A stretch of 64,000 bases of DNA from NCBI GenBank assembly GCA_964535655.1, contig CAZHTP010000001.1, forward strand, positions 98,573-162,572, written 5' to 3'. Numbering within the stretch: the first letter of the stretch is position 1; the number at the start of each line of letters is the position of its first letter. This stretch comes from an uncultured Gammaproteobacteria bacterium (GTDB lineage: Bacteria; Patescibacteriota; Microgenomatia; JALYQM01). Both the position numbers and the translations under genes were made by a program. The notes under the pieces are model-generated. The model ran no database searches, was not told the origin of the DNA, and saw only the letters and a list, made by a program, of their open reading frames with translations. This document shows, one piece after another, positions 22,607 through 59,382 of the stretch.

Positions 22607-22609
22607 AAT

Positions 22610-24823: not shown

Positions 24824-24832
24824 AAGGACTGT

Positions 24833-25546
24833 ATGCATCCAATTTTTAAGCGAGTTTTGGTTAAGATGTCTGGGGAAGCATTTTCTGGAGAACAAGATTA
24901 TGGGGTCGATCCAAAATCTCTTGAATATTTTGCTCATGAGTTAAAAAGCATAGCTGACTTAGGGGTTCAAGTTGCTGTAGTAGTGGGTGGAGGGAATATT
25001 TGGCGTGGCGAAGGTAAGGGCAAAGAGCATATGGACCAGGCACAGAGTCATTTTATGGGAATGCTTGCTACAGTTATTAATACGTTGGCGCTGCAGGATG
25101 CGCTTGAACAACTTGAAGTTCCAACGCGAGCAATGACTGCATTGCAAATAGAATCGGTAGCCGAGCCATATATCAGGCGGAAAGCAATTCGTCATTTGGA
25201 AAAGGGTAGAGTAGTGGTGCTTGGCGGCGGAACAGGAAACCCATTTTTTACTACCGACAGTGCGGCAGCGCTTAGAGCTGCTGAGATTCATGCCGAAGTT
25301 CTGTTGATGTCAAAAAATGGAGTTGATGGCGTGTATACAGCAGACCCAAAAATTGATCCGGCTGCAACAAAATTGGATACCCTTGAGTATATGCAAGCAA
25401 TTAACTCTAACTTACGAGTAATGGATACTACTGCTTTGGCATTTGCCAAGGAACGAATGTTACCAATGGTGGTTTTTAATGGTAAAGAGCCAGGCCTTCT
25501 TAAGAAAATTATTATTGGTGAAAAAATTGGGAGTAGAATTAGTTAA
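24833..25546 (+). CDS. pyrH: UMP kinase PyrH.
   Basis: KRVLVKMSGEAF...VAVVVGGGNIWRG...GNPFFTTDSAAALRA match the conserved PyrH motifs. Confidence 0.9.
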   Translation: MHPIFKRVLVKMSGEAFSGEQDYGVDPKSLEYFAHELKSIADLGVQVAVVVGGGNIWRGEGKGKEHMDQAQSHFMGMLATVINTLALQDALEQLEVPTRAMTALQIESVAEPYIRRKAIRHLEKGRVVVLGGGTGNPFFTTDSAAALRAAEIHAEVLLMSKNGVDGVYTADPKIDPAATKLDTLEYMQAINSNLRVMDTTALAFAKERMLPMVVFNGKEPGLLKKIIIGEKIGSRIS

Positions 25547-25550
25547 TTGA

Positions 25551-26675
25551 TTGGCTATGAAAATTGGAATTGACGCGCGACTTTATATGGAATCGGGTAA
25601 TGGTAGATATTTAAGAAATTTGCTTATACAGTTACGTCTCAACGATCATAAAAATTCGTACGTTGTATTTTGTCTTAAGAAGGATTTTGAAACAATTCGG
25701 AATGTACTCTCGGGTGACAACTGGAAAATTGTGGTTGCTGATTATCGGTGGTATTCTTTTAGCGAACAGTTACTATTCCCTTTTATTTTGTATCGTGAGT
25801 GGGTAGACTTATTGCATTTTCCGCACTTTAACATGCCAGTTTTATATGTAAAACCGTTTGTGGTTACTATTCACGATCTTACTCATTTTGCCTTCGCAAT
25901 GAAACGCGCTTCCACCCATTCTTTTGTTACTTACTATATTAAGCATCAGGCGTACAGTTTTGTTTTCTGGTACGCAATAACATGGAGTAAGAAGATCTTC
26001 ACGGTATCTAGCTATGTGAAGGACGATATTTTGCGTAAGTTTAATTGTGATAAAAATAAGATTATTGTAACGTATGAGTCTGCAGAGAAACCGTTACTTG
26101 TTGCTCAGGATGAAATGAAAGAAGTAGTAAAACGATTAAAAATAAAAGAGCCTTTTTTCCTGTATGTGGGAAATGCGCATCCACATAAGAACATTGAATT
26201 TCTCTTACAATCATTTTCTGAACTACAGAAGTCGGTTTCTCCCGTGCATCTTGTCCTGGCTGGAAAAGAAAATTACTTCTGGACTAAATTACTCGAGTGG
26301 GGAAAAGAGTATAAAATGATATCAAATGTTTCGTATTTGGGTTTTGTACCTGATACTGATTTAGCTGTTCTATATAGTAAAGCAATTGGGTTTGTTTTTC
26401 CTTCGCTTTCAGAAGGATTTGGGTTGCCGGTACTTGAAGCAATGTCGTATGGATGCCCGGTAATTTGTTCTGAATTGACCAGTATTCCTGAGGTTGCGGG
26501 AGATGCGGCGGTTTACATTGATCCAAAAAATATTGATTCTTTAGTTCGCGCAATGCACATGCTGTATTCTTCTTCAGATATTCGTCTTGAGTGTAAACAG
26601 TTAGGTTTTTCTCAAGTTAAAAAATTCAGTTGGGAAGAGATGGGAAAATCTACATTATCCAATTACTTAGGTTGA
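25551..26675 (+). CDS. Family GT4 glycosyltransferase.
   Basis: [27 protein letters not shown] matches the GT4 signature. Confidence 0.85.
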   Translation: MAMKIGIDARLYMESGNGRYLRNLLIQLRLNDHKNSYVVFCLKKDFETIRNVLSGDNWKIVVADYRWYSFSEQLLFPFILYREWVDLLHFPHFNMPVLYVKPFVVTIHDLTHFAFAMKRASTHSFVTYYIKHQAYSFVFWYAITWSKKIFTVSSYVKDDILRKFNCDKNKIIVTYESAEKPLLVAQDEMKEVVKRLKIKEPFFLYVGNAHPHKNIEFLLQSFSELQKSVSPVHLVLAGKENYFWTKLLEWGKEYKMISNVSYLGFVPDTDLAVLYSKAIGFVFPSLSEGFGLPVLEAMSYGCPVICSELTSIPEVAGDAAVYIDPKNIDSLVRAMHMLYSSSDIRLECKQLGFSQVKKFSWEEMGKSTLSNYLG

Positions 26676-35304: not shown

Positions 35305-35535
35305 ATGGCGAAGAAACAGAAACCTTCGCGAACGTGTGTTGGATGTCATACCGTGCGTCCCAAGAATGAACTCGTGCGCTTTGTACGAACATCCAAAGGA
35401 ACAGTTGTTGAAGATCCTACCTCACGATTGCGAGGTAGAGGAGCATATGTATGTTCCGAAACAAAAGAGCGTTGCTTGGTTTTAGCAATTAAAAAACGCG
35501 CTTTTGATCGAGCTTTGCCCGGAAAGGTTATTTGA
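35305..35535 (+). CDS. ylxR: YlxR/DUF448 RNA-binding protein.
   Basis: RTCVGCHTVRPKNELVRFV...GRGAYVC matches the YlxR signature. The gene lies between nusA and infB as in many Gram-positive bacteria. Confidence 0.8.
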   Translation: MAKKQKPSRTCVGCHTVRPKNELVRFVRTSKGTVVEDPTSRLRGRGAYVCSETKERCLVLAIKKRAFDRALPGKVI

Positions 35536-35536
35536 A

Positions 35537-37018
35537 ATGTTAGAAGATACTACTACCGTTCGACCACCAATTGTTGCCGTAATGGGACATGTTGACCATG
35601 GGAAAACAACCCTTTTGGATTATATTCGAAAGGCAAATGTTGCAGCTTCCGAGCATGGCGGTATCACTCAGCATTTAGGTGCGTATCAGGTAGTAACCGA
35701 TCAAGGGAAAGCTATAACTTTTTTGGATACTCCAGGACACGCTGCGTTTGAAGGAATTCGTAAGCGCGGAGGGGAAGTTGCGGATATTGTTATCTTGGTG
35801 GTGGCTGCGGATGACGGTGTGATGCCACAAACTAAAGAAGCAATTCGCCATATTAAAAATGCTGGTAGTGTTATGATTGTGGCTTTTAATAAGGTAGATC
35901 TTCCTGATGCCAATATCGATCATGTTAAGCAACAACTTGCTGAAAACGATGTCTTAGTTGAAAGCTATGGGGGAGATGTGGTTTCTGTTGAAATAAGCGC
36001 AAAAAGCGGCCAAGGAGTTGATCAGCTTCTTGAAATGATTTCACTTGTCTCTGATTTACTTGAACTTAAAGCCGACCCAAAGGCACCGGTTGTTGCGTTT
36101 ACTCTTGAATCCCGAATGGACAAAGCAGGACCTTTAGCGAGTTTACTTGTTAAGCGGGGAACTCTCAAAACAGGAATGGATATTGAGATAGATGGCTCAC
36201 TTGGCCGTATTCGTGCCATGAAGAATGATAAAGGGCAGATTGTTAAAGAAGTTTCACCTTCACAGGCTGCTGAAATTACTGGTTTTTCGAAATTACCTGA
36301 AGCAGGAACAATCTTTATTGAAGAAAACAGTAAACTGTCGACTAGCGAAAGCGTTGGCGCCTTAACAGTACGCCACGTAGCTTTGCAGAACGAAAATGTA
36401 TCAGATTTATTCTCGTCACTTAAAACTGACCGGTATCCGGTGATTCTTAAAGCTGACGTGGCAGGTTCACTTGAAGCGCTAGTTGCGAATATTCCACGAT
36501 TAAATGAAGTTCAGGTTATTGACCAGGGAATTGGTGATGTAGGTGAGTCTGATGTAATGAAAGCTCGTGGTACCAGTGCACGTATTTATTCCTTTAATGT
36601 AGGGATGAATGGCACAACGCGTAAACTCGCTCGGGATGAGAAGGTAGAGGTTAAAGAATATAAAATTATCTATAAGCTATTTGAAGACATGGAAAAAGAT
36701 ATTGTCGATTACTTCACCAAAGCTCCAACAGAGACAATTTCTGGCAAGGCGTTGGTACAAAAGGTATTCGCAGCCTCGACTGGTGGAAAAATTGCTGGTG
36801 TTAAAGTTACTGAAGGGGTGATGCAGGTTGGTGCTACCGTACGTGTAATGCGAGGCGAAACAGAAGTAGGTCGCGGTAAGATTGTCACGGTTAAGAAGTT
36901 GAAAGAGGATGTTCCTCGTATTTCTGCCGGGCAAGAGGGTGGATTAACTTTTGATACCCCAATCGAATTCGCTGAATCTGATATAGTAGAATACTACAAG
37001 CCTATTACAAAAGCCTAA
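35537..37018 (+). CDS. infB: Translation initiation factor IF-2, short form lacking N-terminal domains.
   Basis: The G-domain carries AVMGHVDHGKTTLLD, DTPGH and NKVD. The C-terminal beta-barrel domains are present. The ATG at 35537 follows the ylxR stop. Confidence 0.9.
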   Translation: MLEDTTTVRPPIVAVMGHVDHGKTTLLDYIRKANVAASEHGGITQHLGAYQVVTDQGKAITFLDTPGHAAFEGIRKRGGEVADIVILVVAADDGVMPQTKEAIRHIKNAGSVMIVAFNKVDLPDANIDHVKQQLAENDVLVESYGGDVVSVEISAKSGQGVDQLLEMISLVSDLLELKADPKAPVVAFTLESRMDKAGPLASLLVKRGTLKTGMDIEIDGSLGRIRAMKNDKGQIVKEVSPSQAAEITGFSKLPEAGTIFIEENSKLSTSESVGALTVRHVALQNENVSDLFSSLKTDRYPVILKADVAGSLEALVANIPRLNEVQVIDQGIGDVGESDVMKARGTSARIYSFNVGMNGTTRKLARDEKVEVKEYKIIYKLFEDMEKDIVDYFTKAPTETISGKALVQKVFAASTGGKIAGVKVTEGVMQVGATVRVMRGETEVGRGKIVTVKKLKEDVPRISAGQEGGLTFDTPIEFAESDIVEYYKPITKA

Positions 37019-37060: not shown

Positions 37061-38440
37061 ATGGACCCGCAAAATAACCTTAAACAATTGCAGGATTTAT
37101 TTAATCAGGCTAAGGATATTCTTGTAATTACTAAAGAGAACCCAACTATTGATGGATTGTGCGCCTGTTTGGCTCTGAAAGCTGCTTTTTCTCAGAAAAT
37201 GGACATGCAAGGCAAGAAGAAGAATGTTACCCTGGCTGTTTCTAAACGTAATGGATCTCAGTATTCGCTATTGCCTGGCTTTGATCAGATTGTTTCTGAG
37301 CTTGGTCTACGTGATTTGGTGATTGGGGTTAATGGGTTTGTTGAAGGATCAATTGAAAATGTTAACTGGTATGTTGATAAAGGGCGATTAAACGTTGTTT
37401 TTAAGTCAAATCCGGCTGTTCCAATGCAATTTGATCTCAAAAACCTTGATCCATTTTATGCGGGCGCTAATTTTGATGTTGTAATTGTCGTTGATGCCAA
37501 TAGTCCTCAGGATTTAGGTAATGCGTATAAGCAGGATCCGGGAATGTATTCCGAGTTACCAGTAATTAATATCTCTAATAGTCAGCCTAACACTCGCTTT
37601 GGTCGAATCAATATTGTGGATTCCAGCGTCCCTTCAGTTTGTGAGTTAGCCTTTCAATTAGCTCAAATCGCTCAGCTAAATGTAATGGGCGATGTTGCTA
37701 CGTTATTTTTAAACGGGATAATGGAAGCCACGGATAATTTGTCTCGCAAAGGACAACAAACTGAAACAATTGTGAACCAATTAGTCGCCTTTGGTGGTCG
37801 CCAATTGGATATTAATGCTATCCGTAATCAGGCTAGTTTGCCGACACTGCCAGTTCATAAGAATCCTCCGCCTGTAACTCCTCCTGCCCCTGCGGTGGGT
37901 CAAATGCCTCCAGGAATGTACGGACAATATCCTCCAGGAATGCCGTATCCACCATATATGCCTCCACAAGGCCAATATGGACAGTATCCAATGCCACCAA
38001 TTGGGTATTATCCTGGTCAGTATCCGATGCCTCCACAAGTATATCCCCAGTATCCTCAGGTTCCACCACAGTATGTTCCACAACCCGATCCAAATATGCC
38101 AGTTCAACAGGAATGGAACAGCCAACAAACTCAGGAACCAATGGAAGAATATGATGCTGAAGTGCCTTCAATTGAGCACGATTTAACACAAAGTCAAACG
38201 TATATTCCAACTGTTGAACCGACATCATACGCCCATGTTGAGCCATCTATTTATATGCCTGGAATTTCCCAGCAGCCTGATGCGTATCAACCTGGCACTG
38301 ATTACGAATGGAATGATCAATCCCAGCAGTATGCTCCGCAACAGCAAGATATCCCGCTTGAAGAGCAAAAAGAGCAGCAAAAGGCACCCGATTTTAATGC
38401 TCCTCCTACAGGATTTGTGCCTGGTGAACGAAAATCGTAA
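37061..38440 (+). CDS. DHH/DHHA1-family NrnA-like protein with degenerate catalytic motifs, fused to a roughly 200-aa Pro/Gln/Tyr-rich low-complexity C-terminal region.
   Basis: An NrnA-like N-terminus is present (ILVITKENPTIDGLCACLALKA; VIVVDANSP where DHH is expected). GGRQ replaces the DHHA1 GGGH motif. The tail reads PPGMYGQYPPGMPYPPYMPPQGQYGQYPMPP... Confidence 0.65.
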   Translation: MDPQNNLKQLQDLFNQAKDILVITKENPTIDGLCACLALKAAFSQKMDMQGKKKNVTLAVSKRNGSQYSLLPGFDQIVSELGLRDLVIGVNGFVEGSIENVNWYVDKGRLNVVFKSNPAVPMQFDLKNLDPFYAGANFDVVIVVDANSPQDLGNAYKQDPGMYSELPVINISNSQPNTRFGRINIVDSSVPSVCELAFQLAQIAQLNVMGDVATLFLNGIMEATDNLSRKGQQTETIVNQLVAFGGRQLDINAIRNQASLPTLPVHKNPPPVTPPAPAVGQMPPGMYGQYPPGMPYPPYMPPQGQYGQYPMPPIGYYPGQYPMPPQVYPQYPQVPPQYVPQPDPNMPVQQEWNSQQTQEPMEEYDAEVPSIEHDLTQSQTYIPTVEPTSYAHVEPSIYMPGISQQPDAYQPGTDYEWNDQSQQYAPQQQDIPLEEQKEQQKAPDFNAPPTGFVPGERKS

Positions 38441-38559: not shown

Positions 38560-38829
38560 ATGGCTTTAGCTAACGACGCTAAAAAGACTATTATTTCTAC
38601 AAACCAGATCCATCAAGGTGATACTGGGTCTCCTGAAGTTCAGGTAGCTATTCTCTCAGAGCGAATCACTCGTCTTACAGAGCATTTGAAGCTTCACAAA
38701 GGTGATAATCACTCTCGACGTGGTCTTTTGCAGATGGTAAATAAGCGCCGAAGACTCCTTATGTATCTTATGAAGAAAGATCCAGAGCGATATAAGTCCG
38801 TTGTTGCTAAAGTTGGCTTGTCCAAGTAA
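38560..38829 (+). CDS. rpsO: 30S ribosomal protein S15.
   Basis: [40 protein letters not shown]...KRRRLL is the S15 signature. Confidence 0.9.
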
Positions 38830-38865
38830 CACTCTTAATGAGAGTATTTTCTAAACCCTCCTTGA

Positions 38866-38962
38866 TGTCATTACGGTGGCACGCATAATTCCTCGCAAAG
38901 CTCGGAATTTAATGCTCAGCTTTTTTGCTAGTGGTATGAAAAAGAAGGCCACTGTGAATGAC
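38866..38962 (+). promoter_or_regulatory. Structured RNA region in the rpsO-pnp intergenic space. A long-range stem encloses nested hairpins, and it may be a processing or terminator element.
   Basis: TGTCATTACGGTGGC (38866-38880) pairs with GCCACTGTGAATGAC (38948-38962) at 13 of 15 positions. An inner hairpin pairs AATTCC with GGAATT (38887-38909). A small hairpin ACTCT-taatg-AGAGT lies immediately after the rpsO stop. Confidence 0.3.
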
Positions 38963-38974
38963 TTCTTCGGAGGT

Positions 38975-39001
38975 TTAGAGATTTATCATAATAGGGTATA
39001 A
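38975..39001 (+). promoter_or_regulatory. Putative pnp promoter (TTTAGA-N17-TATAAT).
   Basis: A consensus -10 TATAAT lies at 38996-39001, with an approximate -35 spaced 17 nt upstream. The pnp ATG follows about 147 nt downstream. Confidence 0.35.
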
Positions 39002-39148
39002 TGTCTATATTATTGTTTTCCCTTACCTTGGGAATCTTGGCATGATTTTGGATCCTGAATTAAACAGAAAAACTCTTTTTTCTGCTTGATCGAGGAATCT
39101 GAAAACTGTCGTGATGTGTCTTTTAGGTTAAGGAGAAGGAGTTATTTT

Positions 39149-41371
39149 ATGGCGAATATTATTTCGCAGAGTATTAAAATCGGAGATTCCGAGTTACTAC
39201 TTGAACATGGTCGTTTTGCAGCCCAAGCAAGCGGCGCAGTGATTGGTAGAATGGGCGAGACTATGGTTCTTGCAACGGTTGTTGCAAGCAAAAAAGAGTC
39301 TTCTTTAGACTATTTTCCTTTATCTGTTGAGTTTCTTGAGCGGCTTTATGCTGGTGGAAGAATTTCTTCTTCTCGCTTTATTAAACGTGAAGGTCGCCCT
39401 TCAGAAAATTCAATTTTAACTGCACGTCTTATTGATCGTTCAGTTCGTCCACTTTTTCCCGATGGATTTAAGAATGAAGTTCAGATTGTTGTTACCGTTC
39501 TTTCTGTTGACCTTGAACATGATCCAGATGTACTTGGCGTTATCACGGCAAGTGCTGCACTTGCAGTATCTGATATTCCTTGGAATGGTCCACTCGCTGC
39601 AACTCGCTTAGGCTGGAAAGATGAGACGTATTTGGTTAATCCAGTTGCTGAGGTAATGAGGGTTTCTCAGATGGATTTAATTGTTTCTGGAACAAAGAAT
39701 GAAGTTGTAATGGTTGAAGCTGGGATGCAAGAAATGCCAGAAGAGACTGTTGTTAATGGTCTTGAAGAAGCGCAGAAATATAACAAAATTGTTGTTGAAG
39801 GTATTGAAGAACTCGTTAAGAAAGTTGGAAAAGAGAAGTTTCATTTTGAAAAAGCTGAGATCTCTCAAGAAGATAAAGATGCTGTTACTCAGGTGGCACT
39901 CCCCCTTATTAATGAGATGGTTGAGCTTGCTGCTCAAAAGAAACTTAATAAAGAAGACGCTCTTGGTGAATTAAAGAAGCAAGTTGAAGAAAAACTTGCT
40001 GCTGTTGCAACAGAAGAAAGGCCAGTTCCATCAAAAGCTGTTATTGGCGAACTTTCGGAAAAATTGTTTAAGAAATCTATTCGCACTAATACACTTACTA
40101 CTGGAAAGCGTGCTGATGGACGATCATACGATCAGGTCCGTGAATTGGAAATTGAAGTCGGAGTAATTCCTCGTACGCATGGTTCAGCAATGTTTCAGCG
40201 TGGAATGACTCAAACTTTAACAACGGTAACTTTAGGATCTCCGTCACTTGAACAACTAATTGAAGGCCCGGGTGGCGAAGAAACTAAGCGCTACATGCAC
40301 CATTATAATTTCCCTCCTTATTCGGTGGGAGAAGCAAGGCGAATGGGTTCGCCAGGTCGTCGCGAAATAGGACACGGAGCACTTGCTGAGAGAGCCTTAG
40401 TTCCAGTTATTCCTCCACAAGAGCAGTTTCCCTATGCTATTCGTGTTGTTAATGAAATTATGTCTTCTAACGGGTCTTCTTCAATGGCTTCAGTCTGTGG
40501 GTCTTCACTTGCACTAATGGACGCAGGTGTTCCCGTTAAAGCGGCTGTTGCCGGTGTTGCGATGGGACTGATGACCAATGAAGAAGGTACGAAGTATGCC
40601 GTGTTAACCGATATTCAAGGTCTTGAAGATGCAACTGGTGATATGGACTTTAAAGTTGCTGGTACAGCAAAAGGTATTACTGCTTTGCAGATGGATATTA
40701 AACTCTCTGGTTTAAAACACGAATGGCTTAAGGATGCTGTTATGCAGGCCAAAGCAGGAAGAATGTTTATTCTTAATGCCATGCTTGAGAAGATCTCCCA
40801 GGCACGTCCTACACTTTCTAAATATGCACCTCGTGTTGTGATGATGAAGATTGATCCAGAGACCATTGGTTTAGTAATTGGTGGTGGTGGAAAAACTATC
40901 AATCAGATTATTAATCAGTGTGGTGTCGCGATTGATATTGAGGATGACGGCACCGTGCTTATAAGCGGAACTGAAGATGACGGTATTGCTAAGGCGCAGG
41001 CTTGGATTCTTTCTTTAACCAAAGAAATTAAAGTTGGTGAAGTATATGAAGGTGTTGTAAAACGAATTCTTGCTTTTGGCGCATTTGTTGAAATTCTACC
41101 TGGTAAGGAAGGTATGGTTCATATTTCGAAGCTTGCTCCAAATCGTGTTGAACGTGTAGAAGATGTCGTTCAGGTTGGTGATACCGTAACTGTTCGTGTT
41201 GATGAAATCGATTCCGAACGCCGTATTAACCTCACTATGGATGTTGCTGGTACATGGGTAAAAGAAGATCGCGGAGATGATACTAGCCATGGTGGAGGTC
41301 GTGAAGGAAGATTCGAGCGACGAGATCGTAATGGTGGCGGACGCAGTGACCGAGGTGGAAGACGTTGGTAG
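39149..41371 (+). CDS. pnp: Polynucleotide phosphorylase (PNPase) with an Arg/Gly-rich C-terminal tail.
   Basis: The RBS is AAGGAGAAGGAG. Two RNase PH domains, a KH domain and an S1 domain are present (GEVYEGVVKRILAFGAFVEI). The C-terminus reads GGGREGRFERRDRNGGGRSDRGGRRW. Confidence 0.93.
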   Translation: MANIISQSIKIGDSELLLEHGRFAAQASGAVIGRMGETMVLATVVASKKESSLDYFPLSVEFLERLYAGGRISSSRFIKREGRPSENSILTARLIDRSVRPLFPDGFKNEVQIVVTVLSVDLEHDPDVLGVITASAALAVSDIPWNGPLAATRLGWKDETYLVNPVAEVMRVSQMDLIVSGTKNEVVMVEAGMQEMPEETVVNGLEEAQKYNKIVVEGIEELVKKVGKEKFHFEKAEISQEDKDAVTQVALPLINEMVELAAQKKLNKEDALGELKKQVEEKLAAVATEERPVPSKAVIGELSEKLFKKSIRTNTLTTGKRADGRSYDQVRELEIEVGVIPRTHGSAMFQRGMTQTLTTVTLGSPSLEQLIEGPGGEETKRYMHHYNFPPYSVGEARRMGSPGRREIGHGALAERALVPVIPPQEQFPYAIRVVNEIMSSNGSSSMASVCGSSLALMDAGVPVKAAVAGVAMGLMTNEEGTKYAVLTDIQGLEDATGDMDFKVAGTAKGITALQMDIKLSGLKHEWLKDAVMQAKAGRMFILNAMLEKISQARPTLSKYAPRVVMMKIDPETIGLVIGGGGKTINQIINQCGVAIDIEDDGTVLISGTEDDGIAKAQAWILSLTKEIKVGEVYEGVVKRILAFGAFVEILPGKEGMVHISKLAPNRVERVEDVVQVGDTVTVRVDEIDSERRINLTMDVAGTWVKEDRGDDTSHGGGREGRFERRDRNGGGRSDRGGRRW

Positions 41372-41378
41372 ATTAGTT

Positions 41379-41400
41379 CCTCTATTTGTGATTAAATAGA
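41379..41400 (+). terminator. Hairpin after pnp (CTCTATTT-gtgat-TAAATAGAG), a putative terminator.
   Basis: An 8-bp AT-rich inverted repeat lies immediately after the pnp stop. The U-tract is weak. Confidence 0.4.
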
Positions 41401-41424
41401 GTTACTAGTCGTTACGTTCTTATT

Positions 41425-42501
41425 ATGGCTGACGGACAAAATAGCGATATTTTACAACAACAGACAGATGAACTGCGAGCTCGAGTAGAAGGCGCGAACG
41501 TTCCGGATGGTATTCGAGAAAAATGCCTTGGAATGATTGAGCGTATCGCACGAATGGCGAAGTTTGGTACGTATTCAATTGAATATGAAAATACTTCCCG
41601 ATATATTGATGTTGTGCTGTCAATTCCGTGGGGTGTACTTTCGGAAGATGTTTTGAATCCAACTGTTGCACGAGAAGCGTTAGATAAACATCAATATGGG
41701 CTCGAGCCAGTTAAAGAACGTGTTTTGGAGTACTTAGCTGTTTTACAATTACACCAATATCGTAAACAGCAATTGGGACAAGACGATACGTTTCGCGCTC
41801 CAGTTATCATGTTGGTAGGCCTTGCTGGTACTGGTAAGACATCGTTTGCTTATGCTGTTGCTGACGCAATGAATCGTAAAGTAGCTCGTATTCCGTTTGG
41901 CGGAATGGGGGATGCACTTACGCTTCGTGGACAGTCGCGCGCATTCGCAGATGCTGAGCCAGGTGCGGTTATTAAAGCACTTCTGCAAGCAGGAACACGC
42001 AACCCGGTCATGCTTTTGGACGAAATAGATCGTGTGTCCGATGAAGCACGGGCAAGTGTGATGGGTGTGTTACTTGAGCTTCTTGATCCGCAGCAAAATG
42101 TAGCGTTTCGTGATCACTATTTGGATTATCCGGTTGATTTGTCTGAATGTCTCTTTATCGCGACTGGAAACAACACGACAAATATATCTACGGCGGTATT
42201 GGATCGTTTGGAGGTTATCCAAATGCCATCGTATACAGATGAGGAAAAAATTACTATTGCAGCGAAGTATGTTTTCCCCAAAGCACTACAGGAATCGGGT
42301 TTACCTGAAAATGCAATTATTATTGACCCTTCGGTTTGGCCACAAGTGGTCAGACCACTCGGATTTGATTCCGGCATTCGTACCCTTGAGCGTACGATTC
42401 GCGGAATGTGCCGCAAGGTAGCTCGTATGATTGTTGGTGGAAGTGTTCAGCAAGTGCATGTTACCTCGGAAAATGTAAAGGAATTTTTGCCTACCTGGTA
42501 G
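41425..42501 (+). CDS. Lon-like AAA+ ATPase module lacking both the N-terminal LON substrate-binding domain and the C-terminal S16 protease domain.
   Basis: The pre-AAA region matches Lon (IPWGVLSEDVLNPTVAREALDKHQYGLEPVKERVLEYLAV). Walker A is GLAGTGKTS, Walker B is VMLLDEID, and sensor residues are present. The ORF ends after the helical lid and contains no Ser-Lys dyad region. Confidence 0.75.
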   Translation: MADGQNSDILQQQTDELRARVEGANVPDGIREKCLGMIERIARMAKFGTYSIEYENTSRYIDVVLSIPWGVLSEDVLNPTVAREALDKHQYGLEPVKERVLEYLAVLQLHQYRKQQLGQDDTFRAPVIMLVGLAGTGKTSFAYAVADAMNRKVARIPFGGMGDALTLRGQSRAFADAEPGAVIKALLQAGTRNPVMLLDEIDRVSDEARASVMGVLLELLDPQQNVAFRDHYLDYPVDLSECLFIATGNNTTNISTAVLDRLEVIQMPSYTDEEKITIAAKYVFPKALQESGLPENAIIIDPSVWPQVVRPLGFDSGIRTLERTIRGMCRKVARMIVGGSVQQVHVTSENVKEFLPTW

Positions 42502-42577
42502 GCTCGAAAGAGAGTTTCGTCTCTCGACTTCACTCGAGATGATTTTAGATAGATAAGTTAAATTAAGGAAAAATCAC

Positions 42578-44749
42578 ATGTCAAATGATACTAATGAAAA
42601 TAACAAAAATGATGGAGTAACTGATTTCTCAGCACTTGTTCCTCAAAAAAATAGATATAATCCTGCGAAGGATTCCGTACAGGTAGCACTTGGTGAATTG
42701 CGAGAGAATATCGCGCAAAAAAATCGCCCTCCCTTTCAGAAAAGAAATGATGGGACACGTCCAGTGCCACGAAATGATGCTCCACGTATCGATGGATCCC
42801 GCACTGATGGTCCACGTCGGCCGGCTCGAGCACCTGCTCCTAATCGTCGACCGCAAGGTGATGGCTATGGAGACCAGATACGCCCTGCTGGTAATCGTCG
42901 CAGTGGTTCGTATGAACCTCGTCGCCGCGATTCACGAGGACCAAGTCAGAACCGCTATCCACAATCACCTCGCCCTATGAGTTCATCAATGGCACGAGGT
43001 GCAACAATTCAAAATACTAACTTATCTCAGCAATGGTATGCCGAAACGGTACCGGTGTTACGGAAAGATCCTAACGTAGTTGAAACTGCAAAACTGCGCA
43101 TTCTTCCTATTGGAGGAATTAATGATGTTCAAAAGAATATGTATGTCTATGAAACCGAAAAAGACATAATAATTATCGACTGCGGGATGGGTTTTGCAGA
43201 CGAAGATATGCCGGGTGTTGATTATTTAATTCCTGATATTTCATATCTTAATGACAAAAAAGATAAGATTCGCGCAATTCTTATTACTCACGGGCATGAT
43301 GACCATATCGGAGCGTTATCGCTAATTTGGCCACAATTAAGGTGTCCTATTTATGCTTCGCATATTACAACTGGTTTTATAAAAACCAAAATGACTGAGC
43401 ATAATTTGCCGGTTGAAGATATTAAAGAGATTGATCCAGACGCATCATATGAATTTGGTGTGTTTAGATTTCAATTCTTTAGATTAAGTCATTCCATTCC
43501 TGATACGTTGGGGTTTGTAATGGATACTCCTGTTGGTAGAATTATTCATAGTGCAGATTTTAAATTTGATTATACTCCGGTAATAGGATTACCAACTGAT
43601 GTTCAGCGTATTGCACGATTTGGCGCAGAAGGTGTTTTGTTATTGCTTTCAGATAGTCTTGGCGCTGAAAAGCCAGGCTATACATTATCTGAAACTGTAG
43701 TTGAAGGACAATTTGATGTTGTTACTGCAAAAACTGTAGGTAAAGTAATTGTCACTACAACTAGCTCAAATATTTCTCGTATTCAGCTTGCTATGAATAT
43801 TGCAGCCAAGTACAATCGCAAAGTTGCTGTGTCTGGGCGTTCAATGGAACAGAATATTGGTGTTGCTCGTAATCTCGGATACTTGAAGTATTCTGATGAT
43901 ATGTTTATTGAGCTTGAGGATATTGGGAAGTATGAGGACCATGAATTGTTCTTAATTGTAGCGGGATCACAGGGGCAAATGGAATCAGCTCTTGGTCGTG
44001 TGTCCCGCGATGAACATAAACAGATTCGCCTTCGCCAGGGTGATTCAGTGGTGTTTTCAACGGATCCAATTCCCGGTAATGAAAACCAGACTAATAAATT
44101 AATTGACGCGCTTATCTCGCATGGTGCTGAAGTGTATTATTCAAATATTTTTAGTAACCTGCATGTTTCAGGTCACGCTGCTCAAGAAGAGCTTAAACTA
44201 ATGATTAGCCTCGTTCGCCCACAATACCTCTTACCTATTGGTGGAACAGCACGAAGTACTAAGAAGTATCGTGATATTGCTATGAATATGGGCTTCAATC
44301 AAGAGTCGGTGTTACTTCCTCAAGAAGGTGAGGTAATTGAATTTAATGTTAAAGACGGAGTTTCTACGCCTTCGATTAACGGTCGCTTTGAAGCAAAGGA
44401 TGTGATGGTTGATGGTCTTGGGGTGGGAGACTTATCTGACATTGTGATTCGCGATCGTCAAGTAATGGCTGAAGAGGGTATGTTGGTAGTTATTGTTCCG
44501 GTTGATCATAAAACGGGGCATACGGAAAGTGGGGTCGAGATTGTTTCGCGTGGATTTGTATACATGAAAGAATCGACTCAGTTGATTGATGACATTACTA
44601 AACTGGTTGAGGATATTCTTGAAGAGCAGCATGGTAAGCCAATGGATTGGACGCTTCTTCGAAAGAAGATTGAAGATCGAGTAAGTAAGTTTATCTTTAA
44701 AGAGATTAAACGTAAACCTATGGTTTTGCCGGTGGTGTTTGAGGTTTAA
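42578..44749 (+). CDS. rnj: Ribonuclease J (metallo-beta-lactamase/beta-CASP) with a roughly 170-aa Arg/Pro/Gly-rich N-terminal extension.
   Basis: ILITHGHDDHIGAL (HxHxDH) and beta-CASP motifs are present, together with the RNase J C-terminal domain. The N-terminus reads RNDGTRPVPRNDAPRIDGSRTDGPRRPARAPAPNRRPQGDGYG... Confidence 0.88.
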   Translation: MSNDTNENNKNDGVTDFSALVPQKNRYNPAKDSVQVALGELRENIAQKNRPPFQKRNDGTRPVPRNDAPRIDGSRTDGPRRPARAPAPNRRPQGDGYGDQIRPAGNRRSGSYEPRRRDSRGPSQNRYPQSPRPMSSSMARGATIQNTNLSQQWYAETVPVLRKDPNVVETAKLRILPIGGINDVQKNMYVYETEKDIIIIDCGMGFADEDMPGVDYLIPDISYLNDKKDKIRAILITHGHDDHIGALSLIWPQLRCPIYASHITTGFIKTKMTEHNLPVEDIKEIDPDASYEFGVFRFQFFRLSHSIPDTLGFVMDTPVGRIIHSADFKFDYTPVIGLPTDVQRIARFGAEGVLLLLSDSLGAEKPGYTLSETVVEGQFDVVTAKTVGKVIVTTTSSNISRIQLAMNIAAKYNRKVAVSGRSMEQNIGVARNLGYLKYSDDMFIELEDIGKYEDHELFLIVAGSQGQMESALGRVSRDEHKQIRLRQGDSVVFSTDPIPGNENQTNKLIDALISHGAEVYYSNIFSNLHVSGHAAQEELKLMISLVRPQYLLPIGGTARSTKKYRDIAMNMGFNQESVLLPQEGEVIEFNVKDGVSTPSINGRFEAKDVMVDGLGVGDLSDIVIRDRQVMAEEGMLVVIVPVDHKTGHTESGVEIVSRGFVYMKESTQLIDDITKLVEDILEEQHGKPMDWTLLRKKIEDRVSKFIFKEIKRKPMVLPVVFEV

Positions 44750-56846: not shown

Positions 56847-56869
56847 CACTATACCCCGTTGAGTGCTAA
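56843..56869 (+). promoter_or_regulatory. CIRCE-like HrcA operator upstream of lon (TTATCACTA-N9-GAGTGCTAA).
   Basis: The right arm is identical to the CIRCE consensus GAGTGCTAA. The left arm matches TTAGCACTC at 7/9. The spacer is exactly 9 nt, and the position relative to the -10 is the same as at hrcA. Confidence 0.5.
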
Positions 56870-56943
56870 CTGAGATATTACCCCTTGTGTTTATTTCGGT
56901 TACGTGGTTTGTTAGTTATAAGTTAGTAGAGAGGAGAGGAAGC

Positions 56944-59382
56944 ATGTCTTCAACAATCTATTTAGATGGGAAGCCGGTGAAGTTGCGGGAAGAACTGCCT
57001 TTAGTTTCTTTGAGGGAAAAAGTAGTATTTCCTTCTTCATGGGAAAGTTTCTCAATTAATAGGGATAAATCCAAACTCGCGTTGGATGCATCCACAACGA
57101 CAAATGGACTTGTCGTTTTTGTTTGTCAAAAAAATCCACAAACTGTTAACCCTGATTCCAGCGATATGTACGATGTTGGCACCATTGCCCGCATTCGTCG
57201 TTTCTGGAAAGTTAATGGCGATTATAATCTTACCGTTGAAGGGTTAACCCGAGTCTATATTAAAGAATATGTTCAAGATGAACCGTATTTTGTAGTTCGC
57301 TGTGAGGAGATTCCTGAATTGACTACACATAATGATGAAATCGAGGCATTAGTTGCGAATATTACTGCGCAAATGAATCACTACCGGGAGGTAGGTGGAC
57401 ATTTGTCGTTAGAGTCTTCAATTGCGATCTTTTCTGCAGAAGACCCTAATCAATTGTGTAATGCTATTACTGCCGGTGTGGATTTTAAGCCATTTGATAA
57501 ACAGCAAATTCTTGAGATGGTAGACACTCGGGATCGCTTACAAAAGGTAAGTGAACTTCTTGCACACGAAATTCGTGTCCTTGAAATTGGTCAAAAAATT
57601 GCGAACCAAACACAGGAACGTGTTAAGCGAGTTACCAAAGAGGCAATTTTGCGCGAGCAGATGAGTGCAATTAAAAAAGAGCTTGGTGAAGATGAAACAG
57701 AGGATGAAAGTGCAAATGAAGTAAGTGGCCTTAAGAAAGCAGTTAAGAATGCTAAAATGCCTAAAGAAGTACAAGAGAAAGTTGAAAAAGAAATTAAGCG
57801 ACTTTCTAAAATGCCAGCTATGAGCCCTGAAGTTTCATACCTGCGTACATATATCGATACCGTTCTTGAACTTCCCTGGGGAGTTAAGACTGAGGCAAAA
57901 GTTAATGTGTCGGATGCTGAGAAAATTCTTGATGAAGAACATTACGGTTTAAATAAAGCTAAAGAACGTATCTTGGAGTTTTTAGCTGTGCAAAAACTTG
58001 CCGGTAAAATGAAAGGTCCAATTCTTTGCTTTTCGGGTCCTCCAGGAGTAGGAAAGACTTCAATTGGAAAGTCTATTGCTAAGGCATTGGGACGTAAATT
58101 TGTAAAAGTATCTTTAGGCGGAATTCGTGATGAAGCAGAAATCCGCGGACATCGCCGCACGTATGTTGGTGCCTTGCCGGGAAGAATTATTCAGGGTATT
58201 AAACAGTCCGGTTCTTCAAACCCCGTGTTTATGCTTGATGAAATAGATAAAATTGGTAATGATTACCGGGGTGATCCTTCGGCAGCTTTACTTGAAGCGC
58301 TTGATCCTGAGCAGAACAATAACTTCTCAGATCACTACTTGGAAGTTCCGTTCGATCTTTCGGATGTGATGTTTATTGCTACGGCAAACGTTTTGGAAAC
58401 AATACCGCATGCGCTTCGCGATCGCTTGGAGATAATTGAATTCCCAGGCTATACGGAGCATGAAAAATTCCAAATTGCTGAAACGTATCTGGTGCCAAAA
58501 CAGGTTGAGAATCACGGTTTGAAGGAGAATCAATTTACTCTTACCAGTGATGCTTTAAAGAAAATTATTAATTCGTATACACGAGAGGCAGGTGTGCGAA
58601 GTTTGGAGCGAGAAGTTTCTGCTGTAATTCGTAAGGTGGCGAGAAAAGTAGCGGAAGACAAGGGAACTGAATTCACTATTGATTTGAAAGACGTACCTGA
58701 ATACTTGGGTCCAGCAAAGTTTAGCCCTGAGATTGCTGAAAAGGAAAACGAAATTGGTATGTCAACCGGGTTATTCTGGACTGAAGTGGGAGGAGGAATT
58801 CTCTTTATTGAAGTAAGTGTTGTTCCTGGCAAGGGACAGCTCACCTTAACTGGCTCACTTGGTGATGTAATGAAAGAATCGTGTATGGCTGCTATCAGCT
58901 ATGTACGTTCACGTGCATCGGCTTTAGGATTGGATGAGAAGTTCAACCAAAAGGTAGATATTCATGTCCACGTTCCATCAGGCGCTGTACCCAAAGATGG
59001 TCCATCGGCAGGTGCGGCTATAACAACTGCGTTAGTGTCAGCCTTAACACGAATTCCAACTCGCAAAGATGTTGCGATGACTGGTGAAATTACTCTGCGC
59101 GGTAGAGTAACTGAAATTGGTGGCTTAAAGGAAAAAATTATTGGTGCACACCGTGCTGGAATTAAAACCGTAATCATTCCTAAAGAGAATGAGAAAGATA
59201 TTGTTGAAATTCCTGATATGGTTAAAAATGATTTGAACTTCTATTTTGTAGACCATATGGATCAGGTTTTACCAATAGTTTTGACTGAAAAGATTAATGC
59301 GTCAAAGCCTCAAAAATTAGGAATTCGTAAGAATCCTGAAAAAAAGGCTAAGGATGAAGATTTTAAAGTTGCGGTTGGATAA
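56944..59382 (+). CDS. lon: ATP-dependent Lon protease, full length (LON N-domain, AAA+, S16 protease).
   Basis: The RBS is GAGGAGAGGA. The N-terminal motif is LPLVSLREKVVFP, Walker A is GPPGVGKTS, and the protease active site is PKDGPSAGAAITTALVSAL with Ser and a downstream Lys. Confidence 0.92.
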   Translation: MSSTIYLDGKPVKLREELPLVSLREKVVFPSSWESFSINRDKSKLALDASTTTNGLVVFVCQKNPQTVNPDSSDMYDVGTIARIRRFWKVNGDYNLTVEGLTRVYIKEYVQDEPYFVVRCEEIPELTTHNDEIEALVANITAQMNHYREVGGHLSLESSIAIFSAEDPNQLCNAITAGVDFKPFDKQQILEMVDTRDRLQKVSELLAHEIRVLEIGQKIANQTQERVKRVTKEAILREQMSAIKKELGEDETEDESANEVSGLKKAVKNAKMPKEVQEKVEKEIKRLSKMPAMSPEVSYLRTYIDTVLELPWGVKTEAKVNVSDAEKILDEEHYGLNKAKERILEFLAVQKLAGKMKGPILCFSGPPGVGKTSIGKSIAKALGRKFVKVSLGGIRDEAEIRGHRRTYVGALPGRIIQGIKQSGSSNPVFMLDEIDKIGNDYRGDPSAALLEALDPEQNNNFSDHYLEVPFDLSDVMFIATANVLETIPHALRDRLEIIEFPGYTEHEKFQIAETYLVPKQVENHGLKENQFTLTSDALKKIINSYTREAGVRSLEREVSAVIRKVARKVAEDKGTEFTIDLKDVPEYLGPAKFSPEIAEKENEIGMSTGLFWTEVGGGILFIEVSVVPGKGQLTLTGSLGDVMKESCMAAISYVRSRASALGLDEKFNQKVDIHVHVPSGAVPKDGPSAGAAITTALVSALTRIPTRKDVAMTGEITLRGRVTEIGGLKEKIIGAHRAGIKTVIIPKENEKDIVEIPDMVKNDLNFYFVDHMDQVLPIVLTEKINASKPQKLGIRKNPEKKAKDEDFKVAVG

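What the first reader, a model, noticed from the sequence alone, without database searches (positions are those of the whole stretch)
38560..44749. Compact RNA-decay cluster (rpsO-pnp-Lon-like ATPase-rnj) in which both ribonucleases carry Arg/Gly-rich disordered extensions
PNPase ends in GGGREGRFERRDRNGGGRSDRGGRRW. RNase J begins with a roughly 170-aa Arg/Pro/Gly-rich tract (RPVPRNDAPRIDGSRTDGPRRPARAPAPNRRPQG...) before the beta-lactamase domain. Such RG/RGG-like tails are known scaffolding and RNA-binding modules, and are the bacterial degradosome analogues of the RNase E and RhlB tails. This points to a PNPase/RNase J-centred degradosome in an organism that probably lacks RNase E. The upstream NrnA-like protein at 37061-38440 also carries a low-complexity tail. 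The rpsO-pnp spacer (38830-39148) contains a long-range stem enclosing nested hairpins followed by a TATAAT promoter. This is reminiscent of the autoregulated pnp leader of other bacteria.
Basis: partly seen in the sequence, partly recalled or inferred. Interest (0 to 1): 0.5.

Follow-up and report, generated by a model that had tools for sequence, protein, structure and literature searches.

The report
Tailed ribonucleases in CPR RNA-decay cluster
An uncultured Patescibacteria genome has a conserved gene string in which the RNA-degrading enzymes PNPase and RNase J each carry a positively charged floppy tail and flank a protease-less Lon-type ATPase; the tails are real and under selection, but a physical "degradosome" is still untested.

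Summary
Window 38560-44749 (+ strand) encodes S15, PNPase, a 358-aa Lon-type AAA+ ATPase with no protease domain, and RNase J. The order rpsO-pnp-AAA-rnj recurs in 16 Patescibacteria-type genomes and in none of 76 other bacterial rnj loci.

PNPase ends in a 40-aa Gly/Arg tail. RNase J starts with a 172-aa extension that AlphaFold leaves disordered. That extension is clade-specific (17 orthologs). Its net charge stays at +10 to +18 while its sequence drifts, and it carries a conserved N-terminal peptide (TDFxxLVP) and a short helix. It looks like a selected polycationic tether with docking motifs.

The PNPase tail is widespread, and the cluster is older than the RNase J tail.

Neither protein interaction nor absence of RNase E can be shown here. 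In H. pylori a similar extension aids activity and is not needed for partner docking.

The conserved spacer elements are a -10 box and a 40-51-bp pnp leader hairpin with an invariant core (six genomes, no Rfam family).

The most original item is the ATPase: intact motor motifs, an acidic pore loop, and a full Lon elsewhere in the window.

The parts
37061..38440 (+). DHH-family-derived protein (459 aa). Residues 20-220 give a weak DHH match with the catalytic DHH motif replaced by SNS. A Pro/Gln/Tyr-rich tail follows from about residue 255, with conserved islets (VPSIEHD..YIPT..HVEPS) and a near-C-terminal PDF/PDW..P..F peptide.
   Evidence: Pfam DHH 32.2 bits against a cut-off of 28.1. Alignment to TM1595 puts SNS where DHH should be. 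No NCBIfam family. Tail motifs are conserved in orthologs.
38560..38829 (+). rpsO (ribosomal protein S15, 89 aa)
   Evidence: Pfam Ribosomal_S15 E = 2.3e-34. Same position in all related loci.
38848..38982 (+). Long-range stem enclosing two nested hairpins, just after rpsO. It is specific to this genome and has no U-tract. It probably acts as an rpsO 3'-end structure or terminator.
   Evidence: Fold. Region z = -4.7, no other copy in the window or in other genomes, absent from L082, unrelated structures in L084 and L085.
38974..39002 (+). Promoter-like site for pnp: TTTAGA, 17 nt spacer, TATAAT (-10 box at 38997-39002).
   Evidence: 10 of 12 match to consensus. A (G/T)GTATAAT or AGTATAAT box is conserved at the equivalent position in the related loci. 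Promoter-like matches as such are not enriched in the region (19 found, 17.9 expected), so the argument rests on conservation.
39013..39140 (+). pnp leader hairpin: outer stem, invariant core and variable apical hairpin, about 48 bp in total.
   Evidence: MFE -40.6, z = -3.83, 0 of 200 shuffles as stable. The same architecture is found in 5 other genomes, z = -3.8 to -6.2.
39046..39105 (+). Invariant core of the leader: UUUUGGAUCCUGAA (39046-39059) pairs with GAGGAAUCUGAAAA (39092-39105) around a hairpin of variable sequence.
   Evidence: Identical in 6 genomes while the flanks are unalignable. RNAalifold gives 11 invariant pairs, one U.G/U-A change and 4 apical pairs with compensatory changes. 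The covariance model finds a single copy in the window and none in more distant relatives. No Rfam family.
39149..41371 (+). pnp (PNPase, 740 aa), with Shine-Dalgarno AAGGAGAAGGAG at 39130-41.
41249..41368 (+). PNPase C-terminal Gly/Arg tail (residues 701-740). It has 6 RG/GR dipeptides, an RFER islet and a terminal ...DRGGRRW.
   Evidence: Tail of 40 aa, R+G 53%. The ending GGRR[W/Y] or RG[RN]W is conserved in 6 of 6 long-form-clade loci. Basic tails occur in 35-36 of 145 nearest PNPase cluster representatives.
41425..42501 (+). Lon-derived AAA+ ATPase (358 aa). It matches LonA residues about 246-565 and has neither the N-terminal substrate-binding domain nor the S16 protease domain.
   Evidence: Pfam AAA + Lon_lid. 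PDB Lon E = 6e-72. Only sub-threshold partial Lon hits in NCBIfam. ATPase motifs are invariant and pore loop 1 is remodelled in 121 orthologs. 35% identical to the window's own Lon.
42578..44749 (+). rnj (RNase J, 723 aa), with Shine-Dalgarno AAGGA 9 nt upstream of the ATG.
   Evidence: The catalytic HxHxDH motif (H238 H240 D242 H243) is invariant in A1.
42578..43093 (+). RNase J N-terminal extension (residues 1-172): a disordered polycationic tether, net charge +13.
   Evidence: pLDDT below 50 for residues 1-35 and 50-162. 17 orthologs have extensions of 111-173 aa with net charge +10 to +18. Absent from Daviesbacteria-type and deeper relatives.
42620..42643 (+). Conserved N-terminal peptide TDFSALVP (residues 15-22).
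   Evidence: Present in 16 of 17 long-form orthologs. No other hit in six-frame translations of the window and 5 related loci.
42671..42721 (+). Conserved block DSVQVALGELRENIAQK (residues 32-48), the only predicted helix in the extension.
   Evidence: Conserved in the 11 closest orthologs. AlphaFold helix 34-48, pLDDT 53-64.
56863..59382 (+). Complete canonical LonA protease (839 aa). It is outside the finding but shows that the 358-aa ATPase is a separate paralog.
   Evidence: Pfam LON_substr_bdg + AAA + Lon_lid + Lon_C. TIGR00763 929.9 bits against a cut-off of 608.

Best explanation
This is the conserved housekeeping string nusA-ylxR-infB-(DHH-derived protein)-rpsO-pnp-(Lon-derived ATPase)-rnj-ftsK of Microgenomates-type Patescibacteria.

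Shown:
- PNPase and RNase J are canonical, catalytically intact enzymes with disordered basic appendages.
- The RNase J extension is a lineage-specific addition. Its sequence drifts freely, but its net charge (about +13), an N-terminal peptide (TDFxxLVP) and a short amphipathic helix are kept.
- The PNPase Gly/Arg tail is an older and widespread trait.
- pnp has its own conserved -10 box, followed by a long leader hairpin with an invariant core.
- The ATPase keeps all motor motifs but has replaced Lon's aromatic pore loop with an acidic one. In 15 of the 16 genomes it follows pnp directly, and in the sixteenth (L073) about 1 kb lies between them.

Inferred mechanism:
- The two basic tails act mainly as auxiliary, non-sequence-specific RNA-capture arms. 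They would raise local substrate affinity and allow multivalent RNA-protein clustering, as do the Arg-rich segments of RNase E and the H. pylori RNase J extension that is needed for full activity.
- The conserved peptide and helix at the far end of the RNase J tether dock it to a partner that is still unknown. Candidates are PNPase, the ATPase, the ribosome or RNase J itself.
- The leader hairpin is a processing, stability or feedback element for pnp mRNA.

A stable PNPase-RNase J-ATPase complex is possible but is not the default reading.
For: - Enzyme identity and integrity.
- Disorder.
- Charge conserved at +10 to +18 over 17 orthologs of 111-173 aa, motif in 16 of 17, and two subclades with different second motifs.
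- Basic tracts restricted to the two RNases among 53 ORFs in the window.
- ORF and start supported by a Shine-Dalgarno sequence and by protein-level conservation from residue 15.
- Synteny in 16 CPR-type genomes, starting from either RNase J or the ATPase. It is absent from 76 other rnj loci.
- PNPase tails in all 8 close syntenic loci and in the three deeper CPR loci.
- H. pylori precedent, where the extension is disordered, needed for activity in vitro and not needed for RhpA binding.
- A Saccharibacteria RNase J with a basic N-extension of about 100 aa degrades RNA in vitro.
- Leader.
- ATPase motifs.
Against: - No binding, localisation or activity data exist for these proteins.
- pLDDT is only a proxy for disorder.
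- Charge conservation could partly reflect compositional bias inherited within one clade.
- The RNase J tract has no RGG repeats, so RNA binding is inferred from charge alone.
- The partner of the TDFxxLVP peptide is unknown, and a search with the N-terminal module alone was uninformative.
- In three more distant genomes the PNPase tail is short or mixed although the ATPase is present, so the tails and the ATPase are not obligatorily linked.
- The leader element is confined to six closely related genomes, and its covariation support is thin (4 pairs, n = 6).
Confidence: 0.55

Rival explanations
1. This is a true RNase J/PNPase-centred degradosome. The RNase J extension would be the scaffold. 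Its TDFxxLVP peptide and helix would bind PNPase and/or the ATPase, and the ATPase would be the ATP-driven third subunit in place of a DEAD-box helicase.
For: - The extension has scaffold-like anatomy: short motifs on a disordered tether.
- Gene linkage is tight and lineage-specific, with short or overlapping junctions.
- Features co-occur in one subclade: the RNase J helix, the PNPase RF[E/D]R islet with a terminal aromatic residue, the DHH-protein islets and the leader core.
- No helicase gene lies in the window.
Against: - The cluster and the ATPase predate the RNase J tail, since short-form RNase J genomes have the same order.
- The co-occurring features are confounded with shared ancestry.
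- The H. pylori extension does not mediate partner binding.
- Gene neighbourhood in a nusA-infB-rpsO-pnp housekeeping string is weak evidence for physical contact.
- Absence of RNase E or RNase Y is untested.
Confidence: 0.25
2. The tails are selectively neutral low-complexity expansions, from replication slippage in a small drifting genome, and have no specific function.
For: The linker sequence is unalignable between relatives, and its length varies from 111 to 173 aa. PNPase tails vary from almost none to 60 aa across the wider group.
Against: - Net charge stays in a narrow band.
- The conserved peptide and helix sit at fixed positions.
- The reading frame stays open in 17 orthologs down to 53% identity.
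- Basic tracts are limited to the 2 RNases among 53 ORFs.
Confidence: 0.1
3. For the spacer: the leader hairpin is an E. coli-type autoregulatory pnp leader. RNase III would cut the long duplex, and PNPase would then destabilise its own processed mRNA. Sub-rivals are that it is simply a 5'-terminal stabiliser that blocks 5'-to-3' attack by RNase J, or an operator for a sequence-specific protein.
For: - The architecture matches E. coli: rpsO, a structured 3' end, a promoter, a long imperfect hairpin, then pnp.
- The duplex of 40-51 bp is long enough for RNase III.
- The 29-nt invariant core among diverged flanks implies sequence-specific recognition.
- The hairpin begins within a few nucleotides of the predicted 5' end in several genomes.
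Against: - There is no sequence similarity to the E. coli leader and no Rfam family.
- Shine-Dalgarno sequestration is not conserved: 6 of 8 nt are paired in the window and 0-3 of 8 elsewhere.
- The element is absent from more distant relatives that share the operon, and three of those have almost no spacer.
- RNase III was not identified in the window.
Confidence: 0.35

Closest known systems
Helicobacter pylori RNase J with its 132-aa N-terminal extension (minimal RNase J-RhpA degradosome; PMC3592473, PMC10700544)
   Same: A single RNase J carries a long, lineage-specific, predicted-disordered N-terminal extension ahead of an intact MBL/beta-CASP/C-terminal body. In H. pylori the extension matters for activity and was proposed to support foci or condensates.
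   Different: - There is no sequence relationship between the two extensions.
- The extension here is Arg/Pro-rich with a conserved terminal peptide and helix.
- The H. pylori papers call their extension a distinctive Helicobacter feature, so this is an independent acquisition in Patescibacteria.
- The H. pylori partner is a DEAD-box helicase and does not bind through the extension.
- Here the neighbours are PNPase and a Lon-type ATPase, and no partner is known.
RNase E C-terminal scaffold (E. coli, Pseudomonas, Caulobacter): a disordered region with short linear motifs and Arg-rich RNA-binding segments
   Same: Both consist of conserved micro-motifs embedded in a drifting, charged disordered region attached to the main decay nuclease.
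   Different: The host enzyme is different (RNase J, at the N-terminus). No motif here matches known RNase E microdomains. Binding partners are demonstrated for RNase E and only conjectured here.
E. coli rpsO-pnp intergenic region (rpsO terminator, pnp promoter, RNase III-processed autoregulatory leader); from established knowledge
   Same: The order of elements is the same, and there is a long imperfect hairpin in the pnp 5' UTR.
   Different: The sequences are unrelated. The distribution is very narrow (six genomes). The processing enzyme and any feedback are untested. The 5' structured part is not conserved even among close relatives.
LonA AAA+ module (e.g. Meiothermus taiwanensis Lon, PDB 8k3y and 4ypl); also BrxL, a Lon-related AAA+ that is not a classical protease (PMC10164562)
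   Same: The match is clear (E = 6e-72) over Lon residues about 246-565. Walker A and B, sensor 1, the Arg finger, sensor 2 and the Lon lid are all intact.
   Different: - It has no N-terminal substrate-binding domain and no S16 protease domain.
- The pore-loop-1 Tyr-hydrophobic pair is lost (R, F or Y at that position), followed by an invariant D-A-E-P-G.
- It coexists with a complete Lon.
- It sits after pnp in the genome.
- It has no curated family of its own.
Saccharibacteria RNase J 'B-3' (722 aa; PMC9145738 and its supplement)
   Same: It is a CPR RNase J with a basic N-terminal extension of about 100 aa, and it hydrolysed RNA in vitro.
   Different: Its extension is Lys/Thr/Ser-rich and lacks the TDFxxLVP and VQxALGEL motifs. 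It was studied as a putative beta-lactamase, and the extension was not examined.

Membership tests
RNase J (beta-CASP metallo-beta-lactamase ribonuclease) | MBL domain with the HxHxDH zinc motif | tested here: met
   THGHDDHI, with H238, H240, D242 and H243 invariant in 23 sequences. Pfam Lactamase_B.
RNase J (beta-CASP metallo-beta-lactamase ribonuclease) | beta-CASP insertion and RNase J C-terminal domain; score above the curated family threshold | tested here: met
   RNase_J_b_CASP E = 3e-43 and RNase_J_C E = 6.5e-29. TIGR00649 545.6 bits against a cut-off of 400.
PNPase | Two RNase PH domains, KH and S1; equivalog threshold | tested here: met
   NF008805 917.6 bits against a cut-off of 471.
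LonA protease | N-terminal LON substrate-binding domain | tested here: not met
   The protein starts at the equivalent of Lon residue about 246. There is no PF02190 hit.
LonA protease | C-terminal S16 Ser-Lys protease domain | tested here: not met
   There is no Lon_C hit and the protein ends after the lid. TIGR00763 scores 303.7 bits against a cut-off of 608.
LonA protease | AAA+ module with Walker A and B, sensor 1, Arg finger and sensor 2 | tested here: met
   All are invariant in 121 orthologs.
LonA protease | Pore-loop-1 aromatic-hydrophobic pair (TY[IV]G) for polypeptide translocation | tested here: not met
   The window has AFADAEPG. Across 121 orthologs the Tyr position is R in 55, F in 29 and Y in 15, followed by an invariant D.E. 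The window's own Lon keeps RRTYVGALPG.
DHH/DHHA1 nanoRNase (NrnA) | Catalytic DHH motif | tested here: not met
   SNS aligns to the DHH of TM1595. Orthologs have IDNS or IDNK.
DHH/DHHA1 nanoRNase (NrnA) | DHHA1 domain with a GGGH motif | tested here: not met
   There is no DHHA1 Pfam hit and only a marginal DHH hit (32.2 bits against 28.1). No NCBIfam family.
Bacterial RNA degradosome | Physical association of the nucleases, with or without a helicase or ATPase | not testable with these tools
   Only gene linkage is available.
Bacterial RNA degradosome | Disordered scaffold segment bearing conserved short linear motifs | tested here: met
   RNase J residues 1-172. The partners of the motifs are unknown.
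   No RNase E/G/Y/III gene lies in the 64-kb window. The rest of the genome cannot be reached.
RGG/GAR RNA-binding tail | Clustered RGG/RG repeats in a Gly/Arg-rich disordered segment | tested here: met
   This applies to the PNPase tail only: 6 RG/GR dipeptides and R+G 53% in 40 aa. The RNase J tract has no RGG and is Arg/Pro-rich, so this feature is not met for RNase J.
E. coli-type autoregulated pnp leader | Own promoter between rpsO and pnp, and a long hairpin in the 5' UTR | tested here: met
   A conserved -10 box and a 40-51-bp hairpin in six genomes.
E. coli-type autoregulated pnp leader | RNase III cleavage of the hairpin and PNPase-dependent decay of the processed mRNA | not testable with these tools
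   This needs RNA end-mapping or biochemistry.

The most novel reading that the evidence does not exclude
The protease-less, N-domain-less Lon paralog may be a new kind of ATP-driven partner of PNPase, and through the operon of RNase J, in Patescibacteria. It follows pnp in 16 of 16 genomes. It has an intact motor and an invariant acidic pore loop in place of the aromatic one. Under this reading it engages polycationic segments, such as the Arg-rich tails of the two nucleases or basic RNA-binding proteins on substrates. It would either remodel RNP substrates in place of the usual DEAD-box helicase or control assembly of the nucleases. This would be a Lon-derived degradosome motor.
Probability: 0.15. 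Interest if true: 0.75.

Novelty: new variant of a known kind. Interest (0 to 1): 0.4.

Why it matters
Whether bacteria without an RNase E scaffold organise RNA decay into assemblies is still open, and Patescibacteria are a huge and almost unstudied part of bacterial diversity. This locus offers three concrete handles that can be tested with recombinant material:

- An independently evolved, motif-bearing disordered extension on RNase J. The only studied analogue was described as Helicobacter-specific.
- An uncharacterised Lon-derived ATPase family tied to pnp that has no curated family model.
- An unannotated structured pnp leader with an invariant core.

None of these overturns current understanding. 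Together they define what a candidate CPR RNA-decay module looks like and which pieces are ancestral and which are recent.

Tried and rejected
- **Genome-collection scan with the RNase J alignment.** It was useless for close relatives, but I reused the loci as an outgroup synteny test.
- **'Split Lon' idea.** I considered that the 358-aa ATPase might be a fragment of the organism's only Lon. This is rejected, because a complete LonA lies at 56863-59382.
- **The long-range stem as a conserved pnp regulatory element or a repeat/MITE.** Rejected. It is unique to this genome, has no second copy, and is absent from L082.
- **Shine-Dalgarno sequestration by the leader hairpin.** It is present in the window but not conserved.
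- **Terminal aromatic residue as a general rule of basic PNPase tails.** It is 6 of 6 in the clade, but 7 of 35 against 10 of 110 elsewhere, which is not convincing.
- **Known RNA families.** There are none at gathering thresholds and only noise at E up to 10.
- **Metagenome pattern scan for the leader core.** Of 23 hits, only 2 are true rpsO-pnp loci.
- **Covariance model of the core.** It gave no hits in more distant syntenic loci.
- **Homology search with the 60-aa N-terminal module alone.** It returned nothing because of the method's word requirement, so it is uninformative.
- **S15-type G.U/G-C step in the invariant core.** I noticed it as a possible S15 site. A single two-pair step is too likely by chance to count as evidence.
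- **Literature.** I found no paper on RNA-decay machinery of CPR bacteria, nor on this ATPase.

Full report
**1. What is there.** On the + strand the window encodes, in this order:

- a DHH-family-derived protein (37061-38440)
- S15 (38560-38829)
- PNPase (39149-41371, with a strong Shine-Dalgarno sequence at 39130-41)
- a 358-aa AAA+/Lon-lid ATPase (41425-42501)
- RNase J (42578-44749, with AAGGA 9 nt upstream of its ATG)
- FtsK

NusA, YlxR and a short IF2 lie just upstream. PNPase and RNase J pass NCBI's curated thresholds, and the RNase J zinc motif is intact. Close homologs are annotated as Patescibacteria, and more distant ones as Daviesbacteria or Microgenomates. The host is therefore a CPR bacterium.

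**2. The tails are real.**

- PNPase ends ...GGGREGRFERRDRNGGGRSDRGGRRW. The 40 residues after S1 are 53% Arg+Gly.
- RNase J family models start to align only at residue 174.
- AlphaFold, given a 23-sequence alignment, leaves residues 1-35 and 50-162 below pLDDT 50. It predicts a single helix at 34-48 and folds the catalytic body well.
- In a crude scan of all 53 long ORFs in the window, only these two proteins have Arg-rich, hydrophobic-poor tracts. The other low-complexity stretches are Pro/Ser/Thr/Ala linkers.
- The description needs one correction. The PNPase tail is a true Gly/Arg (RGG-like) tail. The RNase J tract is Arg/Pro/Asn/Gln-rich, has about 10% acidic residues, and has no RGG repeats.

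**3. Anatomy and evolution of the RNase J extension.** Seventeen orthologs, down to 53% identity, carry an extension of 111-173 aa. More distant relatives are about 560 aa and lack it.

- The linker sequence is unalignable, yet net charge stays between +10 and +18.
- Sixteen of the 17 keep a peptide T-D-F-x-x-[LMI]-[VT] 7-24 residues from the N-terminus. This peptide occurs nowhere else in six-frame translations of the window and five related loci.
- The 11 closest orthologs add a block D-x-V-Q-x-A-L-G-E-L-[KR]-E, which coincides with the predicted helix.
- A sister group of five has a hydrophobic islet, VFSFFG, instead.

This is the signature of a functional disordered region: selection on a bulk property plus short docking motifs. 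A 60-aa search with the N-terminal module alone returned nothing, which is a limit of the method.

**4. The PNPase tail is older and commoner.**

- All eight close syntenic loci have tails of 31-60 aa with R+G of 39-62%. This includes two genomes with a short RNase J.
- Three deeper CPR loci also have basic tails.
- Among 145 nearest 50%-identity cluster representatives with a locatable S1 domain, 35-36 have basic or Gly/Arg tails.
- Three more distant Microgenomates-type genomes have short or mixed tails.
- Within the long-form clade, the tail ends in a basic run plus Trp or Tyr in 6 of 6 loci. In the subclade containing the window it also carries an R-F-[E/D]-R islet. The terminal aromatic is not a general rule outside the clade.

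**5. Synteny.**

- Starting from RNase J orthologs, the order nusA-infB-X-rpsO-pnp-AAA-rnj-ftsK is found in every long-form genome examined and in two Daviesbacteria-type genomes.
- Starting from ATPase orthologs chosen without regard to RNase J, three more genomes show rpsO-pnp-AAA-UDG-rnj-ftsK.
- Among 80 rnj loci from across bacteria, only three CPR-type loci have pnp and the ATPase upstream. One Patescibacteria locus (L016) does not. A few Firmicutes have pnp 3-8 kb away, without the ATPase.
- In all, pnp is followed by the ATPase in 16 genomes. The gap is under 120 nt or an overlap in 15 of them, and about 1 kb in L073.
- The cluster is therefore ancestral to a large part of the Microgenomates-type lineage and predates the RNase J tail. 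The two tails are not a coupled invention.

**6. The ATPase.**

- It aligns to LonA residues about 246-565 (E = 6e-72). That region is the last N-domain helix plus the whole AAA+ module and lid.
- The window also contains a complete LonA (56863-59382), to which the ATPase is 35% identical. It is a dedicated paralog, not a gene fragment.
- Across 121 orthologs (about 60% identity; median 356 aa), Walker A and B, sensor 1, the Arg finger and sensor 2 are invariant.
- Lon's pore-loop Tyr is replaced by Arg (55), Phe (29) or Tyr (15), and is followed by an invariant D-A-E-P-G.
- NCBIfam has no model for it; it gives only sub-threshold partial Lon hits. I found no literature on it.
- It is most likely an active hexameric motor that no longer threads polypeptides the Lon way. 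What it acts on is unknown. The acidic loop next to two polycationic tails is suggestive but unproven.

**7. The rpsO-pnp spacer.** The spacer as a whole folds well (z = -4.57), but its parts behave differently.

It is absent from the closest relative (L082 has 11 nt there) and is replaced by unrelated or weak structures in others. It lies upstream of the promoter and is best read as an rpsO 3'-end structure.
- *Promoter.* A -10 box ((G/T)GTATAAT or AGTATAAT) is conserved in the related loci that have a spacer.
- *Leader.* Downstream, six genomes share a 140-170-nt leader that folds into one long hairpin. They are the window, L082, L084, L085, and two loci recovered from metagenomes (L098 and L105). 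The hairpin has a 19-25-bp outer stem, a 12-13-bp core and an 8-14-bp apical stem. It scores z = -3.8 to -6.2, and no shuffle out of 200 is as stable.
- *Core.* UUUUGGAUCCUGAA paired with UGAGGAAUCU(G/A)AAA is essentially identical in all six (the window has UC in place of the first UG) while the flanks have diverged beyond alignment. RNAalifold counts 11 invariant pairs, one U.G/U-A change and four apical pairs with double compensatory changes.
- *Negative results.* Shine-Dalgarno occlusion is not conserved. Rfam has no matching family. A covariance model finds no copy in more distant syntenic loci.
- *Comparison with E. coli.* The layout parallels the E. coli rpsO-pnp region (established knowledge), but processing and feedback are untested.

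**8. Comparison with known systems.**

- The nearest precedent is H. pylori RNase J. Its 132-aa disordered N-extension is required for full activity in vitro and is dispensable for binding the helicase RhpA. Its authors describe it as a Helicobacter feature.
- A Saccharibacteria RNase J that was expressed as a 'putative beta-lactamase' also begins with a basic extension of about 100 aa and degrades RNA.
- Basic N-extensions on RNase J thus recur in at least three lineages with unrelated sequences.
- The motif-on-tether design resembles the RNase E C-terminal scaffold.
- I therefore classify the finding as a new variant of a known kind. The ATPase-pnp linkage and the leader RNA are the less expected parts.

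**9. Verdict.** The degradosome interpretation is plausible but unproven, and part of it is contradicted by the order of evolutionary events and by the H. pylori precedent.

- The most likely mechanism is that the tails are auxiliary RNA-capture and clustering arms, with a docking peptide whose partner is unknown (confidence about 0.55).
- A stable three-protein degradosome has a probability of about 0.25.
- Interest is moderate (0.4).

Noticed in passing
window 56863-59382 (+): A complete canonical LonA protease (N-domain, AAA+, lid, S16 protease; 839 aa) lies 14 kb downstream of the protease-less Lon-type ATPase. The organism therefore keeps both. The two are 35% identical over the AAA+ module.
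   Followed up: yes
window 37061-38440 (+); orthologs in L082, L084, L085, L088, L089, L113-L115: The protein between infB and rpsO is a DHH-family derivative that has lost the catalytic DHH motif (SNS, IDNS or IDNK). It carries a long Pro/Gln/Tyr-rich tail. Its most conserved feature across Microgenomates-type genomes is a near-C-terminal peptide, PDW(F/L)xPKI(Y/F)KG (PDFNAPPTGFVPGE in the window). It is probably a pseudo-enzyme with a docking motif, and it has no curated family.
   Followed up: partly
L116 6219-6266, L117 2948-2995 (IMG/VR viral contigs of 145-170 kb); also L091, L093, L099, L102, L111, L112: A large phage genome carries both halves of the pnp-leader core around a small hairpin, in an intergenic region just upstream of a small ORF with no Pfam match. 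It shares 22 exact bases with L085 on the 5' side and 12 on the 3' side. That is about 11 bases more than the search pattern forced. However, the local fold is not significant (z about -1) and the covariance-model score is weak (19-25 bits). It could be a borrowed protein-recognition site or a coincidence.
   Followed up: partly
L114 7752-9125, L115 7735-9138: In two more distant Microgenomates-type genomes, RNase J is only 457-467 aa and lacks the C-terminal (dimerisation) domain. A uracil-DNA glycosylase gene is inserted between the ATPase and rnj (also in L113).
   Followed up: no
PMC9145738, supplementary table (protein B-3): A 722-aa Saccharibacteria RNase J that was tested as a 'putative beta-lactamase' has a basic N-terminal extension of about 100 aa. 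It fully degraded RNA in vitro and had no beta-lactamase activity. The extension was not discussed in the paper.
   Followed up: partly
window 42522-42539 (+): A small hairpin (TCTCGACTTCACTCGAGA) followed by a T-rich run sits in the 76-nt gap between the ATPase and rnj. It is terminator-like by the simple scan, but terminator-like hits are not enriched in the region (8 found, 6.8 expected).
   Followed up: no
window 35504-37018 (+): IF2 is only 504 aa: it has the GTPase and C-terminal domains but lacks the long N-terminal region of model bacteria. Orthologs in all related loci are 481-500 aa.
   Followed up: no
window 54-1970 (+) and 14147-26675: There is a 638-aa protein with four PA14 domains at the window start. 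A block of about 12 kb encodes glycosyltransferases (GT1, GT2, GT4), a Wzy-like protein and PMT-like membrane proteins, which suggests an elaborate surface-glycan locus. The dnaK operon (hrcA-grpE-dnaK-dnaJ) is at 5501-9632.
   Followed up: no
RNase J N-termini of short-form relatives (P0019, P0022, P0031, P0048, P0067, P0116; L001): Short-form RNase J proteins begin with a recurring basic peptide, [KR]-x-F-[KA]-P-K. MAFFT aligns it with the TDF of the long forms (F17 is at least 90% conserved). The disordered linker may therefore have been inserted between an ancestral N-terminal peptide and the catalytic body, or the alignment may be fortuitous.
   Followed up: no
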